Part shown: piece after piece, positions 1-16,997 of the stretch
Position numbering within the stretch: position 1 is the stretch's first letter
Layout: the number at the start of each line of letters is the position of its first letter
Sequence record: OR769032.1
Direction: 5' to 3' (one strand)
Length of the DNA: 64,000 nt
From: Escherichia phage JoYop
Program-made: the position numbers and the translations under genes
Notes under the pieces: generated by a model
The model's database searches: none
The model's input: only the letters and a program-made list of their open reading frames with translations
Told to the model about the DNA's origin: nothing

Positions 1-885
1 CTGTTTTATAATGATGGTACTACGTTCCATATATTATTAACAGATAAAAATACCGATACTGATAAAACTAAAGCCTCTGGTTCTTATAATAGCTTGAGAC
101 CTTTTTCTATCAATATTGCTTCTGGTAAAGTAACTATTTCAAACTCTATGAGCGTTTCTGGGGTATCAGAGTTTTATAATGGACTTAACATCAAAAATAA
201 TGGAAGTATTAACTTTGATAAGTCTGGCGCTAACCCGAGAAATATGAGAATATTTCATGCTGGTGATGCTTCTCGCGGTAACCGTATTGAAATTGCTGAT
301 GAAACTAACTATATTGCTTACTTTGAAAAAACTCCAGGTGGAGCTAACCGCTTTGTAGTAAATAATGCTACTGTGGATGGTGTTAATCAAATGAATTCAT
401 TTGGTATTAATATCAATAACGCACTTGGTGGAAATAGTATAGCATTTGGTGATAATGATACTGGAATTAAACAATCTGGTGACGGAATTCTCGATATCAT
501 TACTAACGCCGCACGCCGAATGAGATTCCAAACAGGTGACACCTATTCTGACATGAATATAAACGCCCCAAACGTTTATATTCGTTCTGATATTCGTTTG
601 AAATCTAATTTCAGACCTATTGAAAATGCTCTTGAAAAGGTTGAACAGCTTGATGGTTTAATCTATGATAAAGCTGACTATATAGGCGGTGAACCTGTTC
701 AAACAGAAGCAGGTATTATAGCTCAAACGTTGCAAGACGTTTTACCTGAAGCAGTTCGTGAAGTTGAAGATATTAAGGGTAATAAAATACTCACTGTTTC
801 TTCTCAATCCCAGATTGCTCTTCTGGTTGAAGCTGTGAAAACACTTTCTGCTCGTGTAAAAGAACTTGAATCTAAACTTATGTAA
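1..885 (+). CDS. 37: long tail fibre distal subunit (gp37-like), C-terminal fragment; 5-prime end outside window
   Basis: Frame 1 is open from nt 1 into track ORF 94..885; C-terminal ~110 aa (YIRSDIRLKSNF...LVEAVKTLSARVKELESKL) resembles self-cleaving intramolecular-chaperone domains of fibre/tailspike proteins; lies directly upstream of the gp38 adhesin gene. Confidence 0.75.
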   Translation: MFYNDGTTFHILLTDKNTDTDKTKASGSYNSLRPFSINIASGKVTISNSMSVSGVSEFYNGLNIKNNGSINFDKSGANPRNMRIFHAGDASRGNRIEIADETNYIAYFEKTPGGANRFVVNNATVDGVNQMNSFGININNALGGNSIAFGDNDTGIKQSGDGILDIITNAARRMRFQTGDTYSDMNINAPNVYIRSDIRLKSNFRPIENALEKVEQLDGLIYDKADYIGGEPVQTEAGIIAQTLQDVLPEAVREVEDIKGNKILTVSSQSQIALLVEAVKTLSARVKELESKLM

Positions 886-886
886 A

Positions 887-904
887 AGAGGGCTTCGGCC
901 CTCT
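887..904 (+). terminator. GC hairpin with UUCG loop (GAGGGC-UUCG-GCCCUC) just after gene 37 stop; possible attenuator before gene 38
   Basis: Perfect 6-bp inverted repeat seen in sequence, followed by AAGGAUUUUU and the gene 38 start. Confidence 0.35.
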
Positions 905-915
905 AAGGATTTTTA

Positions 916-1701
916 ATGGCAATTGTAGGTGTTCCTGGCTGGATTGGCGAATCTGCCGTGAATGAAACTGGACAACGTTGGATGGATGCTGCGATGAAAG
1001 CTGTTCGTGTTTCAGTTCCTGGTTGGATGAGCTCAATGGCTGGACAATCTAAAGAAGTATATTACAGCATTGGTGCTAGTAATTCTTATAATAAAGACAC
1101 GCTAATAAATTGGATAAAAGCTCAAGGAAGTACTCCTGTTGTTATTACAATTACAGGAAATATTGTTTCTCAATCTACTGGTGTTCCATGCTTAGATTTT
1201 CCTAGCTCATTAACTAATGCATACGTGACACTTAATATCAATTCAGGTGTATATGTTTGGGGCCGTGGCGGGAATGGCGGAAATAACTCTGCCGGTGGAG
1301 CAGGAGGAACTGCAATAAATAATGGAATTGGAACTAGATTGCGTATTAACAACAATGGTGTTATCGCAGGCGGTGGTGGCGGTGGCGGTGGTGGGTATTA
1401 TTCTCCTACGCCACAAATGAAATTAACCTTTGGTGGTGGTGGCGGTCGTCCGTTTGGTGCTGCTGGTGGATCTGCCAACATGCAATCAGGCGCAACTGCT
1501 GGTACTATTTCCGCGCCAGGTAAAGGGTCTGTCAACGGTGTCTATAATGGCGGAAACGGCGGTGATGCTGGTGCCGCAGGTGGTAAATGTAATATTCGTG
1601 GTCAAGGATCAGAATATAACGGCGGTGCGGCTGGTAAAGCTGTTACTGGTAATGCTCCAACTTGGACTAAAGTTGGTACAATATATGGTGCAAGAGTATA
1701 A
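916..1701 (+). CDS. 38: tail fibre tip adhesin gp38, T2-type with glycine-rich motifs
   Basis: 261 aa; N-terminus MAIVGVPGWIGESAVNETGQRWM and several poly-Gly blocks (GGGGGGGGGYY, FGGGGGRPFG) match my recollection of T2-type gp38; SD AAGGA upstream. Confidence 0.85.
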   Translation: MAIVGVPGWIGESAVNETGQRWMDAAMKAVRVSVPGWMSSMAGQSKEVYYSIGASNSYNKDTLINWIKAQGSTPVVITITGNIVSQSTGVPCLDFPSSLTNAYVTLNINSGVYVWGRGGNGGNNSAGGAGGTAINNGIGTRLRINNNGVIAGGGGGGGGGYYSPTPQMKLTFGGGGGRPFGAAGGSANMQSGATAGTISAPGKGSVNGVYNGGNGGDAGAAGGKCNIRGQGSEYNGGAAGKAVTGNAPTWTKVGTIYGARV

Positions 1702-1731: not shown

Positions 1732-2388
1732 ATGGCAGCACCTAGAATATCATTTTCGCCCTCTGATATTCTATTTGGTGTTCTAGATCGCTTGTTCAAA
1801 GATAACGCTACCGGGAAAGTTCTTGCTTCCCGGGTAGCTGTCGTAATTCTTTTATTTATGATGGCGATTGTTTGGTATAGGGGAGATAGTTTCTTTGAGT
1901 ACTATAAGCAATCAAAGTATGAAACATACAGTGAAATTATTGAAAAGGAAAGAAATGCACGCTTTGAATCTGTCGCCCTGGAACAACTCCAGATAGTTCA
2001 TATATCATCTGAGGCAGACTTTAGTGCGGTGTATTCTTTCCGCCCTAAAAACTTAAACTATTTTGTTGATATTATAGCATACGAAGGAAAATTACCTTCA
2101 ACAATAAGTGAAAAATCACTTGGAGGATATCCTATTGATAAAACTATGGATGAATATACAGTTCATTTAAATGGACGTCATTATTATTCCAACTCAAAAT
2201 TTGCTTTTTTACCAACTAAAAAGCCTACTCCCGAAATAAATTACATGTACAGTTGTCCATATTTCAATTTGGATAATATCTATGCTGGAACAATAACCAT
2301 GTACTGGTATAGAAATGATCATATAAGTAATGACCGCCTTGAATCAATATGTTCTCAGGCGGCCAGAATATTAGGAAGGGCTAAATAA
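1732..2388 (+). CDS. t: holin T
   Basis: 218 aa, sequence MAAPRISFSPSDILFGVLDRLFKDNATGK... matches my recollection of T4 holin almost residue for residue; SD AAGGAGGG; AATAAATA late-promoter-like element at ~1706. Confidence 0.95.
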   Translation: MAAPRISFSPSDILFGVLDRLFKDNATGKVLASRVAVVILLFMMAIVWYRGDSFFEYYKQSKYETYSEIIEKERNARFESVALEQLQIVHISSEADFSAVYSFRPKNLNYFVDIIAYEGKLPSTISEKSLGGYPIDKTMDEYTVHLNGRHYYSNSKFAFLPTKKPTPEINYMYSCPYFNLDNIYAGTITMYWYRNDHISNDRLESICSQAARILGRAK

Positions 2389-2661
2389 TTATTTGTTTGT
2401 ATACATCTCTAGATATCGATATACACCCTCAAAACCCTCGTTGAATTCGTCGATGAGGGTTTTCTTATCTTCTTGAGTTAATTCAGAAACAATTTTACGG
2501 AATGAATTCTGATTTAATTTTCTACCTTCATGCGTTACTCCAATCTCATTCAGAAATGCGATAAAATTAGCACGATTCTCAACAATATCTTCTCTGGAAA
2601 ATTTAATCAAAATAGACGCAACAGTAATAATTTCACGAACTGTATCAATGTTTTTATTCAT
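2389..2661 (-). CDS. asiA: anti-sigma70 factor AsiA
   Basis: 90 aa, MNKNIDTVREIITVASILIKFSREDIVENRANF... matches recalled T4 AsiA. Confidence 0.95.
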   Translation of the reverse strand: MNKNIDTVREIITVASILIKFSREDIVENRANFIAFLNEIGVTHEGRKLNQNSFRKIVSELTQEDKKTLIDEFNEGFEGVYRYLEMYTNK

Positions 2662-2673
2662 TAACTATACCAC

Positions 2674-2826
2674 TCAATTAGTTGACTTTATTATAATATC
2701 ATCAGACACTTGATTTGTAAACTGGTCTGTGTTATTTTCTTCAAAAATTTTTTCTACGAATTCCTTGAACGACTCACGTTCCTGAGCTACATTATGCTCG
2801 ATTACCTTTTCAAGATTATGACTCAT
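2674..2826 (-). CDS. hypothetical small acidic protein (50 aa)
   Basis: ORF below track cutoff found by manual translation (MSHNLEKVIEHNVAQERESFKEF...); start overlaps arn stop in ATGA arrangement. Confidence 0.4.
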   Translation of the reverse strand: MSHNLEKVIEHNVAQERESFKEFVEKIFEENNTDQFTNQVSDDIIIKSTN

Positions 2827-3101
2827 TCGAAATAATCTTCAATTTCGTAATCATGGACGTAAATCATTATAGTTTTTAATACATCATCAATACTTTTTCC
2901 TGGAGCTGGAATTACGTAAAAATATCCCGCCTTTAAGTTATCTTTATAAGTTCCAACCAAGAAATCATTATTCTCAAGATGTAGTTCTTCAACTAATTCA
3001 TTAACAATTGAGTGGTATAAATTTGGTAGAAACTTATATAGCTTTTCTAGAATATCAATTTTGATTGTATATTGAACCACAGATTGAGAATCAATAATCA
3101 T
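2823..3101 (-). CDS. arn: Arn-like anti-restriction protein (McrBC inhibitor)
   Basis: 92 aa, same size and position (next to asiA) as T4 arn; sequence consistent with my recollection. Confidence 0.7.
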   Translation of the reverse strand: MIIDSQSVVQYTIKIDILEKLYKFLPNLYHSIVNELVEELHLENNDFLVGTYKDNLKAGYFYVIPAPGKSIDDVLKTIMIYVHDYEIEDYFE

Positions 3102-3184
3102 AGACCTTCCCCTTATGTTTCTGTTTGCGATTAGATTCTTTAAACGCTTTCTTCTTATCCTTATGAACAGAAGCTTTATTAAAA

Positions 3185-3403
3185 TTATGTTTTGCGACTA
3201 AATTGTTCATAGTGTTGAATTACCTCTCTTAAACATTTGCATGTGAATGAAAACTTTTTAGCTACACCACATTCAAATATATGTTCTCTTAAATCACGTG
3301 TGTCAGTATATCCCATCTCAACAATAAAATGCCGTATTAGATTTTTATCTTTATCATTGAGAGAGTTAAAATAATCGGATTTTGAATTAATTTCCCTGGC
3401 CAA
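3185..3403 (-). CDS. hypothetical protein (72 aa)
   Basis: Track ORF in the arn-motA interval; no motif recognised. Confidence 0.5.
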   Translation of the reverse strand: MAREINSKSDYFNSLNDKDKNLIRHFIVEMGYTDTRDLREHIFECGVAKKFSFTCKCLREVIQHYEQFSRKT

Positions 3404-3683
3404 ATTGAATCACCTTCAGTTGACGTTTTAGTTCTTTTATCATCTCTTCGTTCATCGCAATATAAAGATCGCGTAAAGCAGGCTTTAGCATTCCATTTAT
3501 TGGGGAACTAAATGGACATACATAATCTTTTCCTACGAGCTTTTTAGTGAATTCCATATTACAGAACTGAAATGCCGGTTCATTGGCATAAATTCCCCAT
3601 TTGGTTGACATCATTTTATTGGCATATTCCAATGCCTGGATTTGATTCATAATTCCATCAATTTGAAACTTTTTAATATTCAT
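3387..3683 (-). CDS. hypothetical protein (98 aa)
   Basis: Track ORF in the arn-motA interval; tightly packed with neighbours. Confidence 0.5.
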   Translation of the reverse strand: MNIKKFQIDGIMNQIQALEYANKMMSTKWGIYANEPAFQFCNMEFTKKLVGKDYVCPFSSPINGMLKPALRDLYIAMNEEMIKELKRQLKVIQFGQGN

Positions 3684-4144
3684 TAGTAAAGGTCCTCAGA
3701 GTAAAGTTCTTTTTCACTACCACCACGTTCAATACGTACTTGTCCAGCGTAAGTTGCAATAATCATTGCTTCTTCACGTGTCCAATAATTACTATATTGG
3801 TCAATAAACCCTTGGTCATCATCACAAACTTGTTGAGTAACTAATTGAGGTTTAACTACATCTAAAACTTCTGCCATATCTTTAGAATAATGACGAGCAC
3901 CTGGAATAATAAGAGTTCGTCCATCTTTTAATTTAAAACGATTAGCTGCACAGACAATTCGTCGTTGATACTTTTGGTTTTCATCCCAGTATGCAGTCTG
4001 CCAACAGATTTCAGGAACTTCATCTAAAACATTTTGTTCTGTATATTCACCACCGTAAGAAGCTAATTTAGCAGCCAGACTTTCCGGAGTCTCACGCGAC
4101 AAAGCTTTATCTAACAGAGCTAAGCGTTCTTTAAAAGTTTTCAT
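3683..4144 (-). CDS. hypothetical protein (153 aa)
   Basis: Track ORF; ATGA-type overlap with neighbours. Confidence 0.55.
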
Positions 4145-4470
4145 TTAAACCATCCTTTAATACGTTGCCACAAAGTTTTCTGCTGAGCTTTGTTAACACC
4201 AATTGAGCGAATAACCGGTTGAGATTCCTGGAATTCTTTATAATCATCAAGGTAAATTTCGTAAGCTGCATCTGTAAATGAACTTATTGCTGCCATAAAA
4301 TTATTGCGAATACCTACTGGAGCATCTTTACTTTCACGAATAATCATGTATTTACCAGTCTTAATCTTTACGATAGTTCCAAGATAAGCTCCGTGGTACC
4401 AAATATCCCAACCCTCTTGAGTAGGTTCTGCACAACGACGAAGTTCATTGATAATTTCTAACTTGTTCAT
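4141..4470 (-). CDS. hypothetical protein (109 aa)
   Basis: Track ORF directly upstream (in transcription order) of the arn-proximal ORFs. Confidence 0.55.
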
Positions 4471-4480
4471 TATTTATTCC

Positions 4481-5116
4481 TCACAGTTCAGATGCTACAG
4501 TGATTACAGCTTCGATGTTTTCTACCGAGCGTTTAATGTCAAGATACACATTACCATTTTTAGCGATTTTACATGACATTCCGATGTCAGTAAATTTCTG
4601 AATATGATGTTCCATCATTTTGTATCCAAAAATTCGCATATTTCCATTGTTGTTAATTTCAAAATTGCGAATTCCATGAGTACGTTTTTCTAAAATGGCA
4701 AGATAATTACTACGATAAGTTTCAACCTTTTTAAGAACAAATCCATTTTCATCTAAAAGTTTTAACATGAAGTCTTTATCTTCTTCCATATCAGAAGTAA
4801 TCTCACGAGCTTTACGAGTTGCTCGTTTTTTCAGCAGTTCCGGAGCATTTTCTTGTGCGTATAAAGTTGCTGCATTTGAAATAATATCCTGAGCTTCACC
4901 AGTAATGATTAATCCATCACCAGATTTCTCCACCAGGCCTTTTTTAATCAATACCCCAATATTACTATTAACTACTGCATTACCTAAATCTGGATGCACC
5001 TCACGAACTTCTGCAGCTGTAATGAAATCTTTCTTAGCAATGGTAATTAAAATTGCAGCAGTTTTTTCATTCAGAACATCGTTAGAAGCTTTGATGATGT
5101 AAGTTACTTTAGACAT
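4481..5116 (-). CDS. motA: MotA middle-transcription activator
   Basis: 211 aa, same size as T4 MotA; position between arn cluster and gene 52; early promoter immediately upstream. Confidence 0.85.
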   Translation of the reverse strand: MSKVTYIIKASNDVLNEKTAAILITIAKKDFITAAEVREVHPDLGNAVVNSNIGVLIKKGLVEKSGDGLIITGEAQDIISNAATLYAQENAPELLKKRATRKAREITSDMEEDKDFMLKLLDENGFVLKKVETYRSNYLAILEKRTHGIRNFEINNNGNMRIFGYKMMEHHIQKFTDIGMSCKIAKNGNVYLDIKRSVENIEAVITVASEL

Positions 5117-5187
5117 TTTCTAATCTCCGTAATTCTGTATCAGTAGTTGATAGTTGTATAGTACCACAGTATGCTTTGGTTGTAAAC
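5117..5187 (-). promoter_or_regulatory. early promoter plus conserved leader cassette upstream of motA
   Basis: Coding strand GTTTACA-17 bp-TACTAT followed by leader ACAACTATCAACT...GGAG...ATG; contains the 20-mer gttgatagttgtatagtacc (5146-5165). Confidence 0.6.
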
Positions 5188-5218
5188 CGTTTTGTGAAAA
5201 AAATTTTAAAATAAAAAA

Positions 5219-5238
5219 GGGAGAGCCGAAGCTCTCCC
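5219..5238 (-). terminator. intrinsic terminator hairpin (GGGAGAGC-UUCG-GCUCUCCC) plus U-tract
   Basis: Perfect 8-bp stem with tetraloop followed on the - strand by a T-rich run; downstream of gene 52/motA.1. Confidence 0.6.
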
Positions 5239-5243
5239 TAAAA

Positions 5244-5393
5244 TTACTGCATGACTGTGATAACTGTCATGATAACACGTTGAATTCCGAACGCAAGAAG
5301 ACCTCCTGCTACGGCTGGAACAACACCTAAACCCGCCAGTAAAATGCCACCAGATACTAATGCAGCGCTTGTAATACCTATGAATGGACTCAT
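5244..5393 (-). CDS. small hydrophobic membrane peptide (49 aa), motA.1-like by position
   Basis: Manual translation MSPFIGITSAALVSGGILLAGLGVVPAVAGGLLAFGIQRVIMTVITVMQ; start overlaps gene 52 stop (ATGA). Confidence 0.45.
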   Translation of the reverse strand: MSPFIGITSAALVSGGILLAGLGVVPAVAGGLLAFGIQRVIMTVITVMQ

Positions 5394-6718
5394 TTGATTT
5401 CCTCTAAATCTTTGGTGTATTCTGTAACTACATCAGTAGTTTTCCAATATTCGTTCTCTTCTTTTTTAGCTTTAGCTTCTTCAGCAAGTTTCTTTGCTTC
5501 ATCGGAAGTCATATGAAAAATATTCATTCCGACTAGTTTATCAGCATAAGAAGAATACATATCAATTTTAGAAAGTTCTTCAGTCAGTTCTTTGCGAGTT
5601 TTACCCTGTACAACGATTTCACCTGAAATTACTTTCTTAATGAAATGGGCCTTAGCAAAGGCTAAACGAAATGCTGACTCAGTTTCTTTGATTTTGTTAT
5701 CAATTCGTTTTTGGACATAAGTTTTACGAACTTCAACAAAGTCTTTGATTAAATCGACTACATTATCGTAAACTTGAAGCTTTCCTTTCTCATTAATAAC
5801 CGTAATATTCTGAGAACGACGCTCAATCAACCCGAAGTCTTTCATGATTTTTGCATGGCGTTCTTCTTCGTTATCACTCAAAGAGTATTCTTTACGGAAT
5901 TTAATTTTAAAACCAAAACCATGCTCACCGCAAGCATCATCCCATGTAATGAAGCCTTTATCTTCAAGCGGGTCTAAAATTTTGCTCACATAAGTTTCAC
6001 GATCATACTTATACGGAATCTCAGTGATATTCATTTGAGTTCGTGAAGTAAACTTGTATGTTCCGCGAATTTCATATTGTCCATCAATTTCAACGACTTC
6101 ACCGCGAAATTCTGGGAATTCTACTTTCGGTTTAGTTACTTTCTTTCCTTGAAGAGCTTGCAATACAGCTTTCTTGACAGAAGAAACACTATGAGGAAGA
6201 ATGTAAGTTGCATAACCAGTTGCAATACCGGAAACACCATTAAGAAGAACGGTAGGAATAATAGGCAAATAGAAAGCAGGCGGAATGTGTTCTTTATCTT
6301 GATGTACCGGAGCATATTCAGTATCTTTATATACACTATAGAAATTTTTACTTACACGAGCAAAAATATAACGACTTGCCGCTGCTTTTTGAACGGTACG
6401 AGAACCAAAGTTTCCTTGACCATCTAACAGAGGAAAGTTATTATTCCAAGTGTTAGCCATCAAAGCACCTGCGTCTTGCGCAGAGTTTTCACCATGATGA
6501 TATCCAAGGTCCGCTACACCACCTGCAATAGAAGCGAGTTTGTGAAACTTATCTTTATTTCCTCGTGCCAAATCAAGAGCTCGAGCAATAACAAATCGTT
6601 GAACTGGCTTAAATCCATCAATCATATTTGGAATGGCACGATTTTCAACCGTGTACATAGCATAAGCCAATGCTTCATTATCAATGATACTTTTTAAATC
6701 GCGATTATTCAGTTGCAT
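5390..6718 (-). CDS. 52: DNA topoisomerase II medium subunit gp52
   Basis: 442 aa, same size and position as T4 gp52; conserved topoisomerase-type segments. Confidence 0.9.
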   Translation of the reverse strand: MQLNNRDLKSIIDNEALAYAMYTVENRAIPNMIDGFKPVQRFVIARALDLARGNKDKFHKLASIAGGVADLGYHHGENSAQDAGALMANTWNNNFPLLDGQGNFGSRTVQKAAASRYIFARVSKNFYSVYKDTEYAPVHQDKEHIPPAFYLPIIPTVLLNGVSGIATGYATYILPHSVSSVKKAVLQALQGKKVTKPKVEFPEFRGEVVEIDGQYEIRGTYKFTSRTQMNITEIPYKYDRETYVSKILDPLEDKGFITWDDACGEHGFGFKIKFRKEYSLSDNEEERHAKIMKDFGLIERRSQNITVINEKGKLQVYDNVVDLIKDFVEVRKTYVQKRIDNKIKETESAFRLAFAKAHFIKKVISGEIVVQGKTRKELTEELSKIDMYSSYADKLVGMNIFHMTSDEAKKLAEEAKAKKEENEYWKTTDVVTEYTKDLEEIK

Positions 6719-6722
6719 AAAT

Positions 6723-6863
6723 TTACCATACTAGTGAATGTAGTGCCATAATAACATCAGAAATGAAAAGCACGACTTGAATTAATCCGAACATTACTCC
6801 ATAATATAGTGCTACTAATAAAGTAGCAAGGGCTAATGAATAGCCCAAGATTTTCTTAATCAT
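6723..6863 (-). CDS. small membrane peptide (46 aa), 52.1-like by position
   Basis: Manual translation MIKKILGYSLALATLLVALYYGVMFGLIQVVLFISDVIMALHSLVW; start overlaps upstream stop (ATGATTAA). Confidence 0.4.
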   Translation of the reverse strand: MIKKILGYSLALATLLVALYYGVMFGLIQVVLFISDVIMALHSLVW

Positions 6864-7014
6864 TGGTAGATAACAACACAAATGTTAAATATGCACACAT
6901 ACCCTGAGCTAAAGCTTGTGAAAACACACTGCTAGCATCGATACAGATAGTTAAAACACATGCTACTATCCAACAAATAAATGAAATAACTCCTAATAAT
7001 TTTGCGATATTCAT
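6856..7014 (-). CDS. small membrane protein (52 aa), Ac-like by position and size
   Basis: Manual translation MNIAKLLGVISFICWIVACVLTICIDASSVFSQALAQGMCAYLTFVLLSTND; lies between stp and gene 52 as ac does in T4. Confidence 0.4.
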   Translation of the reverse strand: MNIAKLLGVISFICWIVACVLTICIDASSVFSQALAQGMCAYLTFVLLSTND

Positions 7015-7021
7015 ATTTTCC

Positions 7022-7102
7022 TCACTGGCGTCCGAAGACGCCTTTAGTTTTAAGATTATTACGATAGAACTGCATCACGTGTTCGTTGTGGAAATTACTC
7101 AT
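7022..7102 (-). CDS. stp: Stp peptide (26 aa), activator of host anticodon nuclease / restriction modulator
   Basis: Manual translation [26 protein letters not shown] matches my recollection of T4 Stp; start overlaps ndd stop (TAATG). Confidence 0.8.
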
Positions 7103-7545
7103 TAATATGCCTGCAAAACAAATTTAAAGTTATCAGCCAACATACGATTCATTTCTTCAAGTGTTTGATACTCAGAATGATGATTACGAGTAAACGCCAA
7201 AGCTAACTGACCTTTTCCAAACCCCGTCGTCAGAGGTTTCATCTTAGAAGCAGGTAGATAAAATACCGTGTATGCCATATTGTTATTTGCAATAGTACGC
7301 GCAAGCTGAGATCGACGCTGACGAATATGACTTAGAACCGCACTGAATCCTTGCTTAGAACGCTGATTACCTACATAAAATCGTGCAGATACACATGAAC
7401 CGTCAAATTCATTTACCAAAAAGTAAAATCCAGGTTTAGACAAAATGTCTTTGTGCGGAGTTCCCAAAAACCACTCACCACCCTTAATTGTACCAATAAC
7501 AGTAGCACCTGCATTATTCAGATCAGTAACAGTCATATATTTCAT
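7102..7545 (-). CDS. ndd: Ndd nucleoid disruption protein
   Basis: Track ORF 7102..7593 trimmed to the ATG preceded by SD GAGGAAAT ([13 protein letters not shown]...); ~147 aa; position and sequence consistent with T4 ndd. Confidence 0.7.
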
Positions 7546-7577
7546 ATTAATTTCCTCTAAATTATTTTCTACTCCAA

Positions 7578-7599
7578 GGCCGCATGAATACACGCGGCC
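7578..7599 (-). promoter_or_regulatory. stem-loop (GGCCGC-10 nt loop-GCGGCC) in the ndd 5-prime region
   Basis: 6-bp GC inverted repeat seen in sequence between ORF 7606..7821 and ndd. Confidence 0.3.
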
Positions 7600-7605
7600 G
7601 ATAAA

Positions 7606-7821
7606 TTAATCGTCGCAGTCGACGCTCAATTCCCAGAACTCTTCTACAGTATAAGTTTCAGTATCATTTTCAATACAGAAACGTTCATTACTGTTATTTG
7701 CTAAAGTAGCATTAACTGTCGGTTTCTCGCTAGTGCTCTTAAGAGGTGAAATGCGAATTAACTGATCACCATTATCTAAACAGAAAATTTCACCAACTTT
7801 TACATCTTTAAAACTTTTCAT
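7606..7821 (-). CDS. hypothetical protein (71 aa)
   Basis: Track ORF; part of a run of small ORFs in the ndd-denB interval. Confidence 0.5.
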   Translation of the reverse strand: MKSFKDVKVGEIFCLDNGDQLIRISPLKSTSEKPTVNATLANNSNERFCIENDTETYTVEEFWELSVDCDD

Positions 7822-7829
7822 AATTCACC

Positions 7830-7940
7830 TCAAGGAGTATAAAATCCAAACGCAGTTGTTGACCATCCCATCCAATACGGGAAATTTGCGCCAATGTAAA
7901 ACATAAGAATATAAAACCAACCGCTCAGCAAATTCATCAT
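7830..7940 (-). CDS. tiny hydrophobic peptide (36 aa)
   Basis: Manual translation MMNLLSGWFYILMFYIGANFPYWMGWSTTAFGFYTP; ATGA overlap with upstream ORF. Confidence 0.3.
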   Translation of the reverse strand: MMNLLSGWFYILMFYIGANFPYWMGWSTTAFGFYTP

Positions 7941-8155
7941 TTTACACCATTCCAAATTGTTTCAACCACGGATTTTAAACCATTCTGATGAATATCCATT
8001 CCGACTACTGTCATCAAATAGATTCCAACTACAACTGAACCTAATGCAAAAATCAGCATGAAAATGAATAAAGCCGGAAAAATATTATCGAAAAACCATT
8101 CCATAAATGTAAAAGCACTGCGTTTACGTTTCATATTTTCCTCACATAAATCCAA
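7937..8155 (-). CDS. hypothetical membrane protein (72 aa)
   Basis: Track ORF with hydrophobic core ALFIFMLIFALGSVVVGIYLMTVV. Confidence 0.5.
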   Translation of the reverse strand: MDLCEENMKRKRSAFTFMEWFFDNIFPALFIFMLIFALGSVVVGIYLMTVVGMDIHQNGLKSVVETIWNGVK

Positions 8156-8255
8156 AGTAAGCGTTTAATACATCAATCATTAAAACGATTGGGAATATAC
8201 TCAAAACAACTAAAATTATAATTATATTCCATATAGCTTTAACAATCTTTTTCAT
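8142..8255 (-). CDS. tiny membrane peptide (37 aa)
   Basis: Track ORF 8142..8351 trimmed to the ATG after SD GGAGG (MKKIVKAIWNIIIILVVLSIFPIVLMIDVLNAYFGFM); the N-terminal extension in the track is translated promoter/leader. Confidence 0.45.
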   Translation of the reverse strand: MKKIVKAIWNIIIILVVLSIFPIVLMIDVLNAYFGFM

Positions 8256-8313
8256 TTTCTGTTCCTCCGTAGTTGATAGTTGTATAGTACCACAGAGGAA
8301 CAGTCTTGTAAAC
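8256..8313 (-). promoter_or_regulatory. early promoter plus leader cassette (type B copy 1)
   Basis: Coding strand GTTTACAAGACTGTTCCTCTGTGGTACTATACAACTATCAACTACGGAGGAACAGAAA-ATG; 61 bp identical to 61242..61302. Confidence 0.6.
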
Positions 8314-8319
8314 CACTTT

Positions 8320-8418
8320 TTAAAAATATTCGTAATAAATGTGAATACCAATCACTACTGCCGAAACTTGCGCAACCCACCACGCACAAGCAATAAGTAC
8401 AGAATTCAAAATTTTCAT
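8320..8418 (-). CDS. tiny membrane peptide (32 aa)
   Basis: Manual translation MKILNSVLIACAWWVAQVSAVVIGIHIYYEYF with SD GAGG. Confidence 0.3.
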   Translation of the reverse strand: MKILNSVLIACAWWVAQVSAVVIGIHIYYEYF

Positions 8419-8501
8419 AATAACCTCATTACAAAAGTAAATGTTAAACAAATTACCGGAATACTAATTAACCAAACAAAACACCACCATAACGAACTCA
8501 T
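8415..8501 (-). CDS. tiny hydrophobic peptide (28 aa)
   Basis: Manual translation MSSLWWCFVWLISIPVICLTFTFVMRLL; stop overlaps next start. Confidence 0.25.
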   Translation of the reverse strand: MSSLWWCFVWLISIPVICLTFTFVMRLL

Positions 8502-8529
8502 AGTTCAATCTCAACGATTTTCATTTTAC

Positions 8530-8736
8530 TCAATAATCCGCTAAAAGATCAACGATTGCATCACGAAGACATTTATTCGCAATACGTTTAAGAGCAATTT
8601 CAGTTTCAGGCGCATTTCGAATAATCATTGAATTCAATTCAGCTTCGGCAAACTGAAGTTCTTTGACTAATTCAGCTTTATATTTTCCTTGACCTTTCTT
8701 AGCTTTTGCTCGTTTTAATTCAGCTGTAGTAAACAT
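8530..8736 (-). CDS. hypothetical protein (68 aa)
   Basis: Track ORF 8530..8835 trimmed to the ATG after the conserved leader (MFTTAELKRAKAKKGQGKYKAELVKELQ...). Confidence 0.5.
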   Translation of the reverse strand: MFTTAELKRAKAKKGQGKYKAELVKELQFAEAELNSMIIRNAPETEIALKRIANKCLRDAIVDLLADY

Positions 8737-8800
8737 TTTATTCTCCAAATCCGTATCAGTTGATAGTTGTATAGTACCACAGTCCTTGTGGTATGTAAAC
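8737..8800 (-). promoter_or_regulatory. early promoter plus leader cassette (type A)
   Basis: Coding strand GTTTACATACCACAAGGACTGTGGTACTATACAACTATCAACTGATACGGATTTGGAGAATAAA-ATG. Confidence 0.6.
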
Positions 8801-8816
8801 CATTTTGTGAAAATTT

Positions 8817-9374
8817 TTAAATGGAAAGATACCATCCGTTGTAGTTACTTTTTCTTACAACCTTACGAAGGTCTTCTCTATCACCGATGAACTTCGGAGT
8901 GTACTGGATGACACCTGGATGAATTTCTTTAGTGTTGAATATAATTATACAGTCTGCGACCTGATGATTTAGAATGGGCCCTAGATTTATTCCAGAACCG
9001 TACGGATACTCTCCGCTGCATCCTGTTGTTACCGAAATCCAACGAGAGTCAGTTTGATGTGTTTTGACTTCTACTCGAAGACCGCAGTATTTTGGATGTG
9101 CCAAAACATCCCATGCATATGTATACGGGTCATCGACATCTTCTTGACCTTTGTTAACATACCCGCTTAGCCAATCTGCTACAAAAAATTCTGCGTACAC
9201 AGCGATACGGCATCTTTCGATAACTTCTGCCTTATCCTGATTTGGATTTTGCTTTAAAGAATATCTTGCAGTATCAGCAATTTTGACCTTCATTTCACTA
9301 GTCAAGTCACCGTTCGATAGGGTAAATGTCGGAATCTGAAATAGTCTCTGTAGCCCCGGATTCGTTTTCTGCAT
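8817..9374 (-). CDS. denB: endonuclease IV DenB
   Basis: 185 aa, same size and position (next to rIIB region) as T4 denB. Confidence 0.8.
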   Translation of the reverse strand: MQKTNPGLQRLFQIPTFTLSNGDLTSEMKVKIADTARYSLKQNPNQDKAEVIERCRIAVYAEFFVADWLSGYVNKGQEDVDDPYTYAWDVLAHPKYCGLRVEVKTHQTDSRWISVTTGCSGEYPYGSGINLGPILNHQVADCIIIFNTKEIHPGVIQYTPKFIGDREDLRKVVRKSNYNGWYLSI

Positions 9375-9636
9375 TTAGACTTTCCTTTTTACCGCTGAGA
9401 TAAGCGTTATACACTTTAAGAGTACCGTAGTAAATTCGATCGTTTTCATCTAAAGACTCGCGGTCAAGTTCATCGAGTTCCTTTTTATCCATGACTATAA
9501 CATCATTACAGTAAAGAAACCCAAGTTTTTCGTGACCAAACTCAAATTTATTACAGTACACAATATTAGCGTGATGATTTCCGTGTAGTTTAATCTCTTT
9601 TATGTCGGAATCACCGATATTCATACAATAAATCAT
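9307..9636 (-). CDS. hypothetical protein (109 aa)
   Basis: Track ORF; overlaps denB start by 68 nt in another frame; SD AAGGTAAA before first ATG. Confidence 0.45.
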   Translation of the reverse strand: MIYCMNIGDSDIKEIKLHGNHHANIVYCNKFEFGHEKLGFLYCNDVIVMDKKELDELDRESLDENDRIYYGTLKVYNAYLSGKKESLNAENESGATETISDSDIYPIER

Positions 9637-9653
9637 AATTTACCTTAAAACAA

Positions 9654-9669
9654 AAGGGCCGAAGCCCTT
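9654..9669 (-). terminator. terminator hairpin (AAGGGC-UUCG-GCCCUU)
   Basis: Perfect stem with tetraloop; part of a 30-bp block also found at 9880-9910. Confidence 0.5.
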
Positions 9670-9862
9670 ATTTAAATTGTTCAATTCTTTTCTCTAGACA
9701 TTCAGCATAAGATTTCATTGAGATAAACTGTGAAAGCAGTAATTCTTGTTCAACTTCATTAACTGTTAGAAACTTCGTGCTTTCTAAAAATTTGCCCAGT
9801 GCATTAATTTTGAGCATTAATTGTTCGTATTCTTCTTTTACTCGTGCTTGATAACCTAGCAT
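9668..9862 (-). CDS. hypothetical protein (64 aa), predicted helical/coiled
   Basis: Track ORF; ends with the same EQFK-stop-terminator sequence as rIIB. Confidence 0.5.
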   Translation of the reverse strand: MLGYQARVKEEYEQLMLKINALGKFLESTKFLTVNEVEQELLLSQFISMKSYAECLEKRIEQFK

Positions 9863-9879
9863 AATTTTCCTTAGTATGA

Positions 9880-9897
9880 TAAGGGCCGAAGCCCTTA
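9880..9897 (-). terminator. terminator hairpin after rIIB (UAAGGGC-UUCG-GCCCUUA)
   Basis: Perfect hairpin overlapping the rIIB stop codon. Confidence 0.55.
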
Positions 9898-10833
9898 TTT
9901 AAATTGTTCAGTAACGTCTTCAACTACTTCGTATTGGCAGGTACGCATTTTAGCATCGTTGTAATCAATCGGAATTGATACTACATCACGAGGATGTACT
10001 TTAACTTTTACAACTCGGCTGGTTGAACTGCCAAAGTGACGAATATAAGATTTAGAACACACATGCAGACCACGAGAACAAGTTTGTGTATCATCGTCAT
10101 TCACACGAGTACGTGGCATTTTAACTACTTTACCCGGACTGTTATCAAAGGTATTTGAGTGACAGTCAAAGTAATTACTGCGAACTACTTTCCAAGCATA
10201 GAAGTAACCATCTTCTGTAATTTCAATATCGTTTGCTACCAAGAAATCAAAGAGTCGAGATACCGCTTTCTGGCTCGGGTTTTCCAACAGATTTTCCAAG
10301 AACGGAAAATAGAATTCAAAGTTTTCGCCTTTTTCCATCGAGTCAAGAATACGATCAACCAGACCAGACCGTAATTCGATATTTTGATAGAACAAGCTTC
10401 CACCTTCAATTCGAACATCGCCGGAAATATATTTTTCAACAGCGCGACGAACATTAATTTTTTGTGCTGCTTCTTCCAACTTATCCGCTACGAGCAGATT
10501 AAGAATTTCCTGGAAGTTTGAATGAGTGTTAGGAGTTGCGTTATAAGTTACACCATCAACGGTAATTGAAATGAATTTTTTAGATGCATTCCAAATAATG
10601 TCAGATTTAGCAACTGGAGCAATAGCTGCATCGCTCTTAACTGTAACTGTAATGTCACCGCTAATGGTAACTTTGGAGCGCTCAGCTTCTTCAGCATTTT
10701 TCAAAACACGACGGATTGTGTCCACCGATACACCTTGCCAATCAGCCAATTCCTGTTGGGTGTAATTACCACTTGAATACAGTTTAACGATTTCAGCTTG
10801 TTCGTTTTTGGTCAGGCATTTAATATTGTACAT
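9895..10833 (-). CDS. rIIB: rIIB protein
   Basis: 312 aa, MYNIKCLTKNEQAEIVKLYSSG...; same size as T4 rIIB; adjacent to rIIA. Confidence 0.9.
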   Translation of the reverse strand: MYNIKCLTKNEQAEIVKLYSSGNYTQQELADWQGVSVDTIRRVLKNAEEAERSKVTISGDITVTVKSDAAIAPVAKSDIIWNASKKFISITVDGVTYNATPNTHSNFQEILNLLVADKLEEAAQKINVRRAVEKYISGDVRIEGGSLFYQNIELRSGLVDRILDSMEKGENFEFYFPFLENLLENPSQKAVSRLFDFLVANDIEITEDGYFYAWKVVRSNYFDCHSNTFDNSPGKVVKMPRTRVNDDDTQTCSRGLHVCSKSYIRHFGSSTSRVVKVKVHPRDVVSIPIDYNDAKMRTCQYEVVEDVTEQFK

Positions 10834-10844
10834 AATTTTCCTTA

Positions 10845-13022: not shown

Positions 13023-13032
13023 AATTTCCTCA

Positions 13033-13236
13033 TTAATTCATATTACGCTTAATAACTTCAGCAACTTCTAGCAATTCATCTTTAGTTGCAGTGTCGGATT
13101 GAATTTTATCTCTAATATCCTTAAAGCGGTTTTTAAACTCTTCGGCTTCTCCCATATCGAAAAAGCGCTGAATGATTCTATATTCTCGATGAACTGCTTT
13201 ATCAAAAAGTTCTAAATTTACTCTATATGATTTCAT
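13033..13236 (-). CDS. hypothetical protein (67 aa), rIIA.1-like by position
   Basis: Track ORF between gene 39 and rIIA with its own promoter. Confidence 0.55.
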
Positions 13237-13261
13237 TTCAATATCCTCATTTGCCCAATTA

Positions 13262-13291
13262 ATTATACCACATCCTTGTGGTAAAGTAAAC
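13262..13291 (-). promoter_or_regulatory. early promoter (GTTTAC -35, TGTGGTATAAT extended -10)
   Basis: Coding strand GTTTACTTTACCACAAGGATGTGGTATAAT upstream of ORF 13033..13236; the -35 overlaps the gene 39 stop. Confidence 0.55.
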
Positions 13292-15108: not shown

Positions 15109-15160
15109 CACTTATCCTCGTTTGGTTTCGGGAATATTATACTCCGGTAATCATAAAGCT

Positions 15161-15178
15161 AAAGGCCCGAAGGCCTTT
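15161..15178 (-). terminator. terminator hairpin (AAAGGCC-UUCG-GGCCUUU)
   Basis: Perfect 7-bp stem with tetraloop overlapping the stop of ORF 15178..15447. Confidence 0.5.
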
Positions 15179-15447
15179 TATTTAAAACGAATAGTCGAAT
15201 CCTTGAAGAATAGACCAGAACACACGGTTCCTTCTACTTTCTGCCCGGTAGGTCCAATAGCACGAAATCCAGTATGTTGGAAATCATTTTCAGAGCAACC
15301 GAACCAGTTATATCCAGTGATTTCAATATTAGTAAAACCACTTGAAGACAAAACTTTAGTTGCATTATCAGCATCAGTACATCCTACTAAAGATACTGCT
15401 AATACTAATGCTGCGATAGAACGATTAACATATTTCATAATTTTCAC
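15178..15447 (-). CDS. small putative lipoprotein (89 aa)
   Basis: Signal peptide with lipobox-like LVGC (…AALVLAVSLVGCTDAD…). Confidence 0.5.
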   Translation of the reverse strand: MKIMKYVNRSIAALVLAVSLVGCTDADNATKVLSSSGFTNIEITGYNWFGCSENDFQHTGFRAIGPTGQKVEGTVCSGLFFKDSTIRFK

Positions 15448-15815
15448 TTAAATTTAATGGCTTGAAGAAGACTAATAATTCTCAAGCGACTTCTTTCATC
15501 TTTAACTGTAAAAGAAAGAGGGTCACCAGATTTCATAGTAATAGTACATTCAAAATCAAAATCTTCGGGAACTTCTTCGAATAGGTCAAATTCTTCATCA
15601 TAAATTAGAACATTACTCTGAAAACTGTGAAGAATTTTTCCATCATTTCCAGATGCTGTACTAATCATTGTAACATTATTACCTTTCATATCTTCAACGA
15701 TAAATTCGCTTGTAGATATTACAGCATTAATAGAACCATTCCTATAAATAGCAGAAAATAGATATTTCTTTTCTTCGCCTTCGCGAATACGATACTTCTT
15801 ACCGATTTTAAACAT
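15444..15815 (-). CDS. hypothetical protein (123 aa)
   Basis: Track ORF; ATGA overlap with downstream ORF. Confidence 0.55.
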   Translation of the reverse strand: MFKIGKKYRIREGEEKKYLFSAIYRNGSINAVISTSEFIVEDMKGNNVTMISTASGNDGKILHSFQSNVLIYDEEFDLFEEVPEDFDFECTITMKSGDPLSFTVKDERSRLRIISLLQAIKFK

Positions 15816-15817
15816 AA

Positions 15818-15994: not shown

Positions 15995-15996
15995 AA

Positions 15997-16616: not shown

Positions 16617-16629
16617 TACAATTTCCTCA

Positions 16630-16975: not shown

Positions 16976-16997
16976 TTTATGAAAAAAATTTTAAACT

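What the first reader, a model, noticed from the sequence alone, without database searches (positions are those of the whole stretch)
1..1701. Host-range module: self-cleaving-type fibre C-terminus followed by glycine-rich adhesin
The gene 37 product ends in a domain resembling intramolecular chaperone/auto-cleavage modules, and gene 38 encodes a T2-type adhesin with several poly-glycine blocks flanking short variable segments. The variable segments between glycine blocks are the likely receptor-specificity determinants; the poly-Gly codon runs (1375-1400, 1435-1450) are also prone to slippage or recombination.
Basis: partly seen in the sequence, partly recalled or inferred. Interest (0 to 1): 0.35.

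Follow-up and report, generated by a model that had tools for sequence, protein, structure and literature searches.

The report
T-even phage tail-fibre tip module
This is the ordinary, well-studied host-recognition end of a T2/T6-like phage tail fibre: a fibre protein that cuts off its own folding helper, followed by a glycine-rich tip protein that most likely binds the E. coli outer-membrane protein Tsx.

Summary
Window 1-885 is the 3' end of gene 37, cut by the window start. Its last 99 codons are a Peptidase_S74 intramolecular-chaperone domain with the Ser/Lys pair (S196, K201) aligned to the mapped S16 cleavage site. Window 916-1701 is a 261-aa T2-type gp38 adhesin. It matches Pfam Gp38_N and GP38, the solved S16 gp38 (6F45_D, E=3e-49), and keeps the three docking tryptophans. 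Gene t (holin) follows.

The poly-Gly runs lie at 1369-1395 and 1432-1446, a few bases from the stated coordinates. Across 31 gp38 sequences, variation concentrates between the glycine blocks.

The loops in HVS2-4 are 82-90% identical to three Tsx-typed adhesins (T6, FL23, Bas39). They are 16-54% identical to OmpA, OmpC and FadL/OmpF types, so Tsx is the predicted receptor.

The allele is a mosaic. The gp37 part is REP1-like, the gp38 N-terminal half Bas39-like, and the gp38 loops Pu-Krd-SF4-like. A significant breakpoint at 1342-1370 abuts the poly-Gly tract, which supports recombination. No slippage signal was found.

Near-identical genes are already in GenBank (gp38 97.7%). The finding is ordinary and already known.

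The parts
1..885 (+). 3' end of gene 37 (long tail fibre distal subunit): 294 codons plus stop. The 5' part lies outside the window.
   Evidence: Frame +1 is open from nt 1. PHROG long tail fibre distal subunit, 1.4e-64. 93.4% DNA identity to phage REP1 g37-g38.
1..585 (+). Distal shaft and tip of mature gp37 (window aa 1-195). It ends ...NAPNVYIR, the predicted docking surface for gp38.
   Evidence: Aa 138-195 align to the S16 gp37 tip in 6F45_A, including the GDNDTG motif. The tip is 93-100% REP1-like over nt 1-780 and differs from most other relatives in nt 1-171.
586..882 (+). C-terminal intramolecular chaperone / autocleavage domain (S196-M294, 99 aa). Predicted scissile bond R195|S196; predicted catalytic pair S196 and K201.
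   Evidence: Pfam PF13884 at aa 196-253, E=1.5e-15. Alignment to the S16 cleavage site. S, D, R and K invariant. Same Ser/Lys+5 spacing as T5 pb1 S1264/K1269. Profile hits to other solved chaperone domains. 88% identical to the T2 domain.
887..904 (+). Intercistronic GC-rich hairpin AGAGGGC-UUCG-GCCCUCU (7 bp, UUCG loop) between the g37 stop and the g38 ribosome-binding site.
   Evidence: MFE -13.4 kcal/mol for the 61-nt stretch. Flagged as terminator-like. A hairpin sits at the same position, with different stem sequences, in T6, PP01, FL18, S16 and IMG/VR loci.
905..909 (+). Shine-Dalgarno-like AAGGA, 6 nt upstream of the g38 ATG.
   Evidence: Read directly from the sequence.
916..1701 (+). 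Gene 38: T2-type tail-fibre tip adhesin, 261 aa.
   Evidence: Pfam Gp38_N + GP38. PHROG_2056 'tail fiber protein; host specificity', 3.9e-104. PDB 6F45_D 3e-49 and 9V85 2e-33. 97.7% identical to Pu-Krd-SF4 gp38 and 96.9% to Bas39 gp38.
916..1050 (+). gp38 N-terminal attachment domain (aa 1-45) with W9, W22 and W37.
   Evidence: Pfam Gp38_N 7e-18. The three Trp are invariant in 11 adhesins from 4 genera. They correspond to the three docking tryptophans of S16 gp38. 96% identical to T2 and 67% to T6.
1051..1260 (+). gp38 central beta-helix region (aa 46-115), T2/Bas39 subtype.
   Evidence: Aligned to the S16 gp38 beta-helix. 63% identical to T2 and 33% to T6.
1261..1635 (+). Glycine-rich specificity region (aa 116-240): glycine-rich motifs alternating with variable loops. 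Aa 132-151 is a conserved beta-helix rung.
   Evidence: 34% Gly in aa 116-261. Entropy profile. Aligned to the S16 polyglycine sandwich. Segment boundaries are my own approximation.
1342..1370 (+). Interval containing a recombination breakpoint. To the left, g38 resembles Bas39; to the right, it resembles Pu-Krd-SF4.
   Evidence: 68 informative sites. Left of the breakpoint 24 Bas39-like and 8 Pu-Krd-like; right of it 3 and 33. Maximum chi-square 31.5, reached by 0 of 10000 permutations.
1369..1395 (+). Poly-Gly block GRM2: nine Gly codons (G152-G160), GGC GGT GGT GGC GGT GGC GGT GGT GGG.
   Evidence: TRF finds only an imperfect array (period 3, 80% matches; period 9, 2.9 copies). Entropy 0.50 bits.
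1396..1431 (+). Variable loop HVS2 (aa 161-172, YYSPTPQMKLTF). T165 is F in T6, FL23, Bas39, Bas43 and REP1, and M in Pu-Krd-SF4.
   Evidence: Highest entropy, 2.44 bits. 75-83% identical to the T6-class Tsx-typed adhesins (T6, FL23, Bas39), 50% to the divergent Tsx-typed Bas43, and 0-25% to the others.
1432..1446 (+). Poly-Gly block in GRM3: five Gly codons (G173-G177), followed by the conserved RPFG.
   Evidence: The run length is 5 in 28 of 30 gp38 sequences. Invariant columns G173-G177.
1471..1548 (+). Variable loop region HVS3 (aa 186-211).
   Evidence: Entropy 1.78 bits. 100% identical to Pu-Krd-SF4, 81-88% to T6, FL23 and Bas39, and 26-63% to OmpC, FadL and OmpA types.
1585..1620 (+). 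Variable loop HVS4 (aa 224-235, KCNIRGQGSEYN).
   Evidence: Entropy 2.32 bits. 83-100% identical to the T6-class Tsx-typed adhesins (T6, FL23, Bas39), and 8-58% to the others, including the divergent Tsx-typed Bas43 at 21%.
1732..2388 (+). Gene t (holin). This is the conserved right-hand flank of the module, included as context.
   Evidence: Pfam Phage_holin_T 5e-117. 95-100% DNA identity to all T-even relatives compared.

Best explanation
This is the distal long-tail-fibre tip module of a T2/T6-like Tequatrovirus.

gp37 folds as a trimeric beta-helical fibre with the help of its own C-terminal 99-residue intramolecular chaperone. Once the trimer is correct, the chaperone removes itself by Ser196/Lys201-mediated autoproteolysis at R195|S196, which exposes the ...NVYIR tip. 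One gp38 monomer then docks onto that tip through the three tryptophans (W9, W22, W37) of its N-terminal helical domain.

The C-terminal half of gp38 forms a glycine-rich sandwich. Its distal loops (HVS2-4) bind the primary receptor and so set host range. The loop set is the T6 / FL23 / Bas39 type, so the predicted receptor is the nucleoside channel Tsx.

The allele was assembled by homologous recombination among co-circulating T-even phages, and one junction abuts the poly-Gly tract.

What is shown here: gene identities, domain membership, conserved catalytic and docking residues, the variability pattern, loop similarity to receptor-typed adhesins, and the mosaic breakpoint.

What is inferred from established work on S16, T2, T6, T5 pb1 and K1F endosialidase: actual cleavage, 3:1 assembly, the polyglycine-II fold and Tsx binding.
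For: Domain hits are. Solved-structure homology is 6F45_D at 3e-49, 9V85 at 2e-33 and 6F45_A at 2.6e-10, the last rising to 1.7e-48 with a profile.

The cleavage motif aligns to the experimentally mapped S16 site. It has the same Ser/Lys+5 geometry as T5 pb1, and S, D, R and K are invariant.

The three Trp are invariant, matching their described role in S16.

Gene order g37-g38-t-asiA is the same as in T2, T6, S16 and the other relatives.

Entropy peaks fall between the glycine blocks.

HVS2+3+4 identity is 90% to Bas39, 82% to T6 and 82% to FL23. All three are Tsx-dependent by knockout assays. The figures for other types are OmpA 46-54%, OmpC 20-22% and FadL/OmpF 16%.

Trojet et al. 2011 state that T2/T6 gp37 is proteolytically cleaved and capped by gp38, and that Tsx binders share one HVS set.
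Against: No experiment exists on this phage. The closest gp38 (Pu-Krd-SF4, 97.7%) has no receptor typing that I found.

A few HVS2 and HVS3 substitutions can change or add receptors. PST versus T6 gained OmpA dependence, and this allele has a private residue, T165, in HVS2.

A second Tsx-typed adhesin (Bas43) has quite different loops (44% identity), so loop class and receptor do not map one-to-one.

The 3D fold was not predicted here. gp37 is truncated by the window, so nothing can be said about the rest of the fibre.
Confidence: 0.9

Rival explanations
1. The module is as described, but the receptor is not Tsx alone. The adhesin might use OmpA, or need Tsx plus another outer-membrane component, as phage PST does.
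For: A few HVS2 and HVS3 changes convert T6-like PST to OmpA, Tsx, FhuA and LPS dependence. T165 in HVS2 is private to this allele. OmpA-typed Bas45 gp38 is 84% identical overall. According to Lutz et al., type 1 OmpA adhesins sit phylogenetically close to Tsx adhesins.
Against: OmpA-typed adhesins (Bas45, FL12, FL18) carry a 5-residue deletion in HVS2 and a 4-residue insertion in HVS3, both absent here. Loop identity to them is only 46-54%, against 82-90% to three T6-class Tsx-typed adhesins.
Confidence: 0.2
2. The gene 38 product is a T4-type tail-fibre assembly chaperone that is not part of the virion, as many public annotations suggest ('distal long tail fiber assembly catalyst', 'tail assembly protein').
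For: Those product names are attached to near-identical genes in several GenBank records.
Against: There is no similarity to T4 gp38 (BLASTP E=20) or to the T4 gp37 C-terminus (E=0.35). There is a full-length match to the adhesin family and to the S16 and PP01 adhesin structures. The T4 RefSeq note itself says the T2-subfamily 'gp38' is unrelated and is the adhesin.
Confidence: 0.02
3. The poly-Gly codon runs act as slippage-prone contingency tracts that generate in-frame length variants of the adhesin.
For: TRF reports a weak period-3 and period-9 array at 1369-1394. Pure-Gly run length in GRM2 ranges from 5 to 10 across diverse gp38s.
Against: The run uses mixed GGC, GGT and GGG codons (80% matches as a period-3 repeat). 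All close relatives have exactly 9 and 5 Gly. In the 10- and 11-sequence alignments the GRM2 columns are ungapped, and shorter runs arise by substitution. The 5-Gly run is fixed in 28 of 30 sequences. Both blocks have the lowest entropy in the protein. Deletion of a GRM inactivates the T6 adhesin, according to the abstract of Trojet et al..
Confidence: 0.05

Closest known systems
Salmonella phage S16 gp37-gp38 fibre tip (PDB 6F45; Dunne et al. 2018)
   Same: Same architecture: a gp37 tip plus a cleavable C-terminal chaperone with the S-D-x-R-x-K motif. gp38 has three docking Trp, a beta-helix and a glycine-rich sandwich. Gene order is g37-g38-t-asiA.
   Different: Only 46% gp38 identity and about 25% chaperone identity. 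The S16 loops differ (20% identity in HVS2-4) and S16 targets Salmonella OmpC. The chaperone is 113 aa in S16 and 99 aa here.
Phage T6 gp38 (Tsx-specific adhesin)
   Same: The specificity half is 79% identical and HVS2-4 are 82% identical. Length is the same (261 aa), as are the Gly-run lengths of 9 and 5.
   Different: The N-terminal 115 aa are only 46% identical, and the T6 gp37 C-terminus is a different subtype with a longer tail. This is a different attachment-domain and fibre-tip pairing.
Phage T2 gp37 C-terminus and gp38 N-terminal domain
   Same: The gp37 chaperone domain is 88% identical with an identical cleavage motif. The g37-g38 intergenic hairpin is identical. The gp38 attachment domain is 96% identical.
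   Different: T2 HVS2-4 are only 16% identical, and T2 uses FadL/OmpF.
Escherichia phages Pu-Krd-SF4/SF3, FriedrichMiescher (Bas39) and REP1
   Same: These are the nearest alleles. Their gp38s are 97.7%, 96.9% and 93.5% identical. REP1 matches the whole 1-1701 at 93.4% DNA identity. Bas39 is experimentally Tsx-dependent.
   Different: No single record matches throughout. The window combines a REP1-like gp37 tip, a Bas39-like gp38 N-terminal half and Pu-Krd-SF4-like loops, and it carries the private residue T165.
C-terminal intramolecular chaperone domains of K1F endosialidase, T5 pb1, phi29/GA-1 appendage and MYRF (Pfam Peptidase_S74)
   Same: The same Pfam family, the Ser nucleophile with Lys at +5, and a position at the extreme C-terminus of a trimeric fibre.
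   Different: Sequence similarity is distant. Here the domain is short (99 aa), and its removal creates a docking site for a separate adhesin rather than finishing the receptor-binding tip itself.

Membership tests
T2-type gp38 tail-fibre adhesin (Pfam PF21721 + PF05268; S16 gp38 fold) | Full-length sequence match to the family models and to a solved member. | tested here: met
   Gp38_N 64.8 bits and GP38 238.4 bits against cutoffs of 25. 6F45_D at E=3e-49 over aa 8-259.
T2-type gp38 tail-fibre adhesin (Pfam PF21721 + PF05268; S16 gp38 fold) | N-terminal attachment domain with three conserved tryptophans that dock into gp37. | tested here: met
   W9, W22 and W37 are invariant in 11 adhesins. 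Their role is described for S16.
T2-type gp38 tail-fibre adhesin (Pfam PF21721 + PF05268; S16 gp38 fold) | Conserved glycine-rich motifs alternating with hypervariable segments in the C-terminal half. | tested here: met
   Gly runs of 9 and 5 plus GRGGNGG, GGAGG, GGNGG and GGAAG. Entropy is 0.5-1.0 bits in the glycine blocks and 1.8-2.4 bits in HVS2-4.
T2-type gp38 tail-fibre adhesin (Pfam PF21721 + PF05268; S16 gp38 fold) | The gene lies immediately downstream of g37, and that g37 ends in a cleavable chaperone. | tested here: met
   g37 stop at 885 and g38 start at 916, followed by t and asiA. Relatives have the same order.
T2-type gp38 tail-fibre adhesin (Pfam PF21721 + PF05268; S16 gp38 fold) | Three-layer polyglycine-II sandwich fold. 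| not tested
   No structure prediction was run. A deep alignment from fetched loci is not accepted by the prediction tool, and a single-sequence model would be unreliable. The fold is inferred from 49% identity to 6F45_D.
T2-type gp38 tail-fibre adhesin (Pfam PF21721 + PF05268; S16 gp38 fold) | Present on the virion as a monomer capping the gp37 trimer, where it binds the receptor. | not testable with these tools
   Requires virion proteomics, cryo-EM or adsorption assays.
Peptidase_S74 / C-terminal intramolecular chaperone domain | Match to PF13884 above the gathering score, at the extreme C-terminus of a fibre protein. | tested here: met
   57.6 bits against 22 at aa 196-253 of 294. The profile finds 6F45_A, MYRF 7DC3, 8JOV and 3GUD.
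Peptidase_S74 / C-terminal intramolecular chaperone domain | Scissile/nucleophilic Ser at the domain start with the activating Lys five residues downstream. | tested here: met
   S196 and K201 in SDIRLK. S, D, R and K are invariant in six gp37 C-termini. T5 pb1 has S1264/K1269. The S16 site S|SDRRIKK aligns.
Peptidase_S74 / C-terminal intramolecular chaperone domain | Autoproteolytic release after trimerisation. | not testable with these tools
   Needs expression, SDS-PAGE and mass spectrometry of wild type against S196A and K201A.
T4-type gp37 needle tip plus gp38 chaperone | Sequence similarity to T4 gp38 and to the T4 gp37 C-terminal receptor-binding domain. | tested here: not met
   BLASTP E=20 to T4 gp38 and E=0.35 to the T4 gp37 C-terminus.
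T6-class (Tsx-recognising) gp38 specificity domain | Shares the HVS set common to Tsx-dependent adhesins. | tested here: met
   HVS2+3+4 identity is 82% to T6, 82% to FL23 and 90% to Bas39, against 16-54% to adhesins typed for other receptors.
T6-class (Tsx-recognising) gp38 specificity domain | Infection depends on Tsx. | not testable with these tools
   Needs plating on tsx deletion and complemented strains.

The most novel reading that the evidence does not exclude
This recombinant allele combines a REP1-like fibre tip, a Bas39-like gp38 body and Pu-Krd-SF4-like loops, and it carries the private HVS2 residue T165. That position is F in every Tsx-typed relative compared. The allele might therefore have a shifted or widened receptor range, for example tolerating Tsx variants of non-K-12 hosts or gaining a second receptor as PST did relative to T6. 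The junction at the poly-Gly tract would then be a recent natural example of glycine-motif-guided loop swapping.
Probability: 0.1. Interest if true: 0.3.

Novelty: already known. Interest (0 to 1): 0.08.

Why it matters
It matters little for discovery. The module, its structure, its maturation and its logic of host-range variation are textbook for T-even phages, and near-identical genes are already deposited.

There are three practical points:
- The receptor can be predicted from the loops (Tsx), which helps with phage-cocktail design and with anticipating resistance through tsx loss.
- Overall gp38 identity is a poor predictor. An OmpA-typed adhesin is 84% identical overall, while T6 is only 65% identical overall yet shares the loops.
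- The locus gives a clean, statistically supported example of a recombination junction next to a glycine-rich motif, consistent with the long-standing model of motif-mediated adhesin shuffling.

Tried and rejected
- T4-type reading (gp38 as chaperone, gp37 as needle tip): rejected by direct comparison.
- Slippage at the poly-Gly codons: I looked for run-length polymorphism in close and distant relatives and for perfect tandem repeats, and found no support.
- Late promoter TATAAATA inside 1-2800: no exact match. The 1-mismatch site at 1706-1713 upstream of t is no more than chance would give.
- Known structured RNAs: no Rfam family reaches its gathering score anywhere in the window.
- Formal covariation test of the g37-g38 hairpin by RNAalifold: the short MAFFT alignment slipped register and recovered only 4 pairs with a negligible covariation term, so it is uninformative. 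Individual folds were used instead.
- Structure prediction and fold search: not run. A single-sequence model of a polyglycine sandwich would be unreliable, and the sequence match to 6F45 already answers the question.
- The large protein-database searches (search for homologous proteins and the search of protein representatives) were not spent, because the phage collection already gave 97.7%-identical proteins.
- Antisense ORFs within 1-1701 (41-74 aa) were treated as chance ORFs opposite a coding strand that has strong homology.
- The segment I first labelled 'HVS1' (aa 132-151) proved conserved (0.85 bits) and is a beta-helix rung. The real first variable loop is the short NNSA stretch around aa 123-126, which is also an insertion hot spot.
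Full report
**What is there.** The first 2.4 kb of the window carry three co-oriented genes on the + strand.
- Nt 1-885: an ORF open from nt 1, with 294 codons, truncated by the window start.
- Nt 916-1701: a 261-codon ORF.
- Nt 1732-2388: a 218-codon ORF.

Downstream on the minus strand are asiA (2389-2661) and motA (4481-5116). I identified those two by comparing their positions and sequences with the annotated T6 and T2 records, not by a dedicated search.

Pfam assigns the first ORF to Peptidase_S74 ('chaperone of endosialidase') at aa 196-253 (E=1.5e-15). It assigns the second to Gp38_N (aa 1-42, 7e-18) plus GP38 adhesin (aa 47-261, 1e-70), and the third to the T holin (5e-117). PHROGs agree: long tail fibre distal subunit; tail fibre protein, host specificity; holin.

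At the DNA level, 1-1701 matches Tequatrovirus genomes, best REP1 at 93.4% over the full length. A 20-kb stretch of the backbone is at most 95.8% identical to any record in the collection. The window therefore comes from a T-even phage that is not itself in that collection.

**Checking the observation.** gp38 is 23% glycine overall and 34% in aa 116-261.
- The two pure Gly runs are G152-G160 (nt 1369-1395) and G173-G177 (nt 1432-1446).
- I aligned 31 distinct gp38 sequences taken from GenBank phage records and IMG/VR contigs.
- Mean column entropy is 0.50 and 0.57 bits in the two poly-Gly blocks.
- It is 2.44, 1.78 and 2.32 bits in the segments between them, which I call HVS2, HVS3 and HVS4. 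These boundaries are my own approximation of those in Trojet et al. 2011.
- Aa 132-151, which I first took for HVS1, is conserved and is a beta-helix rung. The first variable loop is the short NNSA stretch near aa 123-126.
- The description 'glycine blocks flanking variable segments' is therefore quantitatively correct.

**gp37 C-terminus.** The window fragment matches the solved S16 gp37 tip-plus-chaperone chain (6F45_A, E=2.6e-10).
- In an alignment with T2, T6, PP01, FL18 and S16, the residues S196, D197, R199 and K201 (SDIRLK) are invariant.
- The S16 cleavage site has been mapped to DLNVS|SDRRIKK, releasing the last 113 residues and exposing the gp38 docking surface (PMC7917993).
- The aligned window site is NVYIR|SDIRLKS. 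The predicted cut is therefore R195|S196 (nt 585|586), releasing 99 residues.
- The Ser and Lys-at-+5 arrangement matches T5 pb1 (S1264/K1269), where the mechanism was worked out by analogy with K1F endosialidase (PMC4690869).
- A profile of the six gp37 C-termini also retrieves other solved chaperone domains from the PDB: MYRF 7DC3 (1.8e-10), a tail fibre 8JOV (2.9e-8) and the GA-1 neck appendage 3GUD (7e-4).
- The domain is 88% identical to that of T2. [quoted passage not shown]
- The T4 gp37 C-terminus is unrelated.

**gp38.** The protein aligns over aa 8-259 with the crystal structure of S16 gp38 (6F45_D, E=3e-49) and with PP01 gp38 (9V85, 2e-33).
- W9, W22 and W37 are invariant in 11 adhesins from Tequatrovirus, Mosigvirus and Gelderlandvirus.
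- In S16, three tryptophans at the apices of the N-terminal helices insert into symmetry-related pockets of the gp37 trimer (PMC6851490).
- T4 gp38, the chaperone, shows no similarity (E=20). The 'assembly catalyst' and 'tail assembly protein' labels on many near-identical GenBank genes are carried-over misnomers.

**Which receptor.** I aligned the protein with adhesins whose receptors were determined with knockout strains.

| Adhesin | Typed receptor | Source | Overall identity | HVS2+3+4 identity |
|---|---|---|---|---|
| Bas39 FriedrichMiescher | Tsx | BASEL table, | 97% | 90% |
| T6 | Tsx | | 65% | 82% |
| FL23 | Tsx | | 62% | 82% |
| Bas45 PaulHMueller | OmpA | | 84% | 54% |
| FL12 | OmpA | | 63% | 46% |
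| Bas43 TadeuszReichstein | Tsx | BASEL table, | 84% | 44% |
| PP01 | OmpC | | 44% | 22% |
| S16 | OmpC |, reference yellow group | 46% | 20% |
| T2 | FadL/OmpF | | 63% | 16% |

- FL18 (OmpA) was compared in the first alignment only. Its HVS2+3+4 identity is 54%.
- S16's OmpC specificity rests on my knowledge of Marti et al. 2013 and Dunne et al. 2018, not on a passage I read here.
- Overall identity misleads. OmpA-typed Bas45 is 84% identical overall, and T6 only 65%. The N-terminal 115 residues are of the T2/Bas39 subtype (76% identical to T2, 46% to T6).
- The OmpA-typed adhesins (Bas45, FL12, FL18) also carry a 5-residue deletion in HVS2 and a 4-residue insertion in HVS3. Both are absent here.
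- Trojet et al. noted that nearly all Tsx binders share one set of four HVSs. This protein has that set.
- I therefore predict Tsx, with about 0.75 confidence.
- Two caveats apply. A few HVS2 and HVS3 changes turned T6-like PST into a phage with multi-receptor dependence. Residue T165 in HVS2 is private to this allele: it is F in T6, FL23, Bas39, Bas43 and REP1, and M in Pu-Krd-SF4.

**Mosaic origin, and the 'slippage or recombination' claim.** Sliding-window DNA identity and ungapped difference maps show the following pattern.
- Nt 1-780 are REP1-like (93-100%) and far from most other relatives.
- Nt 781-1020 cover the chaperone end, the intergenic hairpin and the gp38 attachment domain. This stretch is shared by all T2-subtype phages at 92-100%.
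- Nt 1253-1370 are identical to Bas39.
- Nt 1410-1628 are identical to Pu-Krd-SF4. Across 1360-1640, Pu-Krd-SF4 and its near-twin SF3 are 98.2% identical and almost all other records are 87-89%; one partial match reaches 90.8%.
- A three-sequence maximum-chi-square test on 68 informative sites places a breakpoint between 1341 and 1371 (chi-square 31.5, reached by 0 of 10000 permutations).
- That interval ends in the first Gly codon of the 9-Gly tract. This fits the published idea that conserved glycine-rich motifs mediate loop swapping.
- It is a single case, and the interval also includes 27 nt of the conserved 'RINNNGVIA' coding sequence.
- Slippage has no support:
  - The tract uses mixed GGC, GGT and GGG codons and is only an imperfect repeat.
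  - Close relatives all have 9 and 5 Gly.
  - The 5-Gly run is fixed in 28 of 30 diverse gp38s.
  - GRM2 columns are ungapped in the curated alignments.

**Mechanism, with status of each step.**
- Shown here: gene identities, domain membership, conserved catalytic and docking residues, the variability pattern, receptor-class similarity, and recombination mosaicism.
- Inferred from the S16, T2/T6, T5 pb1 and K1F literature: chaperone-assisted trimerisation, autocleavage at R195|S196, docking of one gp38 per gp37 trimer, the polyglycine-II sandwich fold, and Tsx binding by the distal loops.

**Comparison with the known, and verdict.** The module meets every sequence-testable defining feature of the T2-type gp38 adhesin family and of the Peptidase_S74 chaperone family. 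It fails the T4-type test. The nearest deposited gp38 proteins are 97.7% (Pu-Krd-SF4) and 96.9% (Bas39) identical. The finding is correct but ordinary. It is an already known kind of system with near-identical deposited members. Only the particular mosaic and one private loop residue are new.

Noticed in passing
window 887-904 (+): A GC-rich hairpin with a UUCG tetraloop (AGAGGGC-UUCG-GCCCUCU, about -13 kcal/mol) sits between the g37 stop and the g38 Shine-Dalgarno. A hairpin occupies the same position with different stem sequences in T6 (GGGGC/GCCCC), S16 (GAGCC/GGCTC), PP01 and many IMG/VR loci. It is not followed by a clean T-run. It could stabilise the mRNA or tune gp38 output relative to gp37, which are 1:3 in the fibre, but this is pure speculation.
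   Followed up: partly
window 2431-2463 (+), inside asiA (2389-2661, minus strand): A 14-bp inverted repeat with a T-rich tail, flagged as terminator-like, lies 43 nt downstream of the t stop codon and within the 3' coding part of the convergent asiA gene. It may terminate the late g37-g38-t transcript.
   Followed up: no
whole window 1-64000: The T4 late-promoter octamer TATAAATA occurs only twice (15743 +, 26192 -), against 10.5 +/- 3.3 expected from shuffles. This suggests avoidance of spurious late promoters in this mostly early/middle gene region.
   Followed up: no
window 916-1050 (gp38 aa 1-45); hits H144-H147: The gp38 attachment domain alone is about 75% identical to the N-termini of proteins in RB43-like Pseudotevenvirus and in Klebsiella, Enterobacter and Cronobacter phages. 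The remainder of those proteins does not align. The docking domain therefore appears to be a portable module shared by otherwise different adhesins.
   Followed up: no
L007 (phage FL18, PP400780.1) 1483-2256; several GenBank records: Annotation problems in public records. The FL18 adhesin CDS is annotated from an internal ATG (locus nt 1543), 20 codons short of the conserved MAVEG... start at 1483. Many T2-type gp38 genes, including that of T6, are labelled 'distal long tail fiber assembly catalyst' or 'tail assembly protein', which is the function of the unrelated T4 gp38.
   Followed up: partly
L050 (Bas45 PaulHMueller) 2147-2929 vs window 916-1701: An OmpA-typed adhesin is 84% identical overall to this predicted Tsx binder, because the two share the N-terminal half. 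T6 (Tsx) is only 65% identical overall. Whole-protein identity or BLAST ranking is therefore a poor receptor predictor, and loop-restricted comparison is needed.
   Followed up: yes
window 2400-22400: The backbone downstream of the fibre module is at most 95.8% identical to any phage record (PaulHMueller, FL23, the slur phages). The source phage sits near the species boundary relative to deposited Tequatrovirus genomes.
   Followed up: partly
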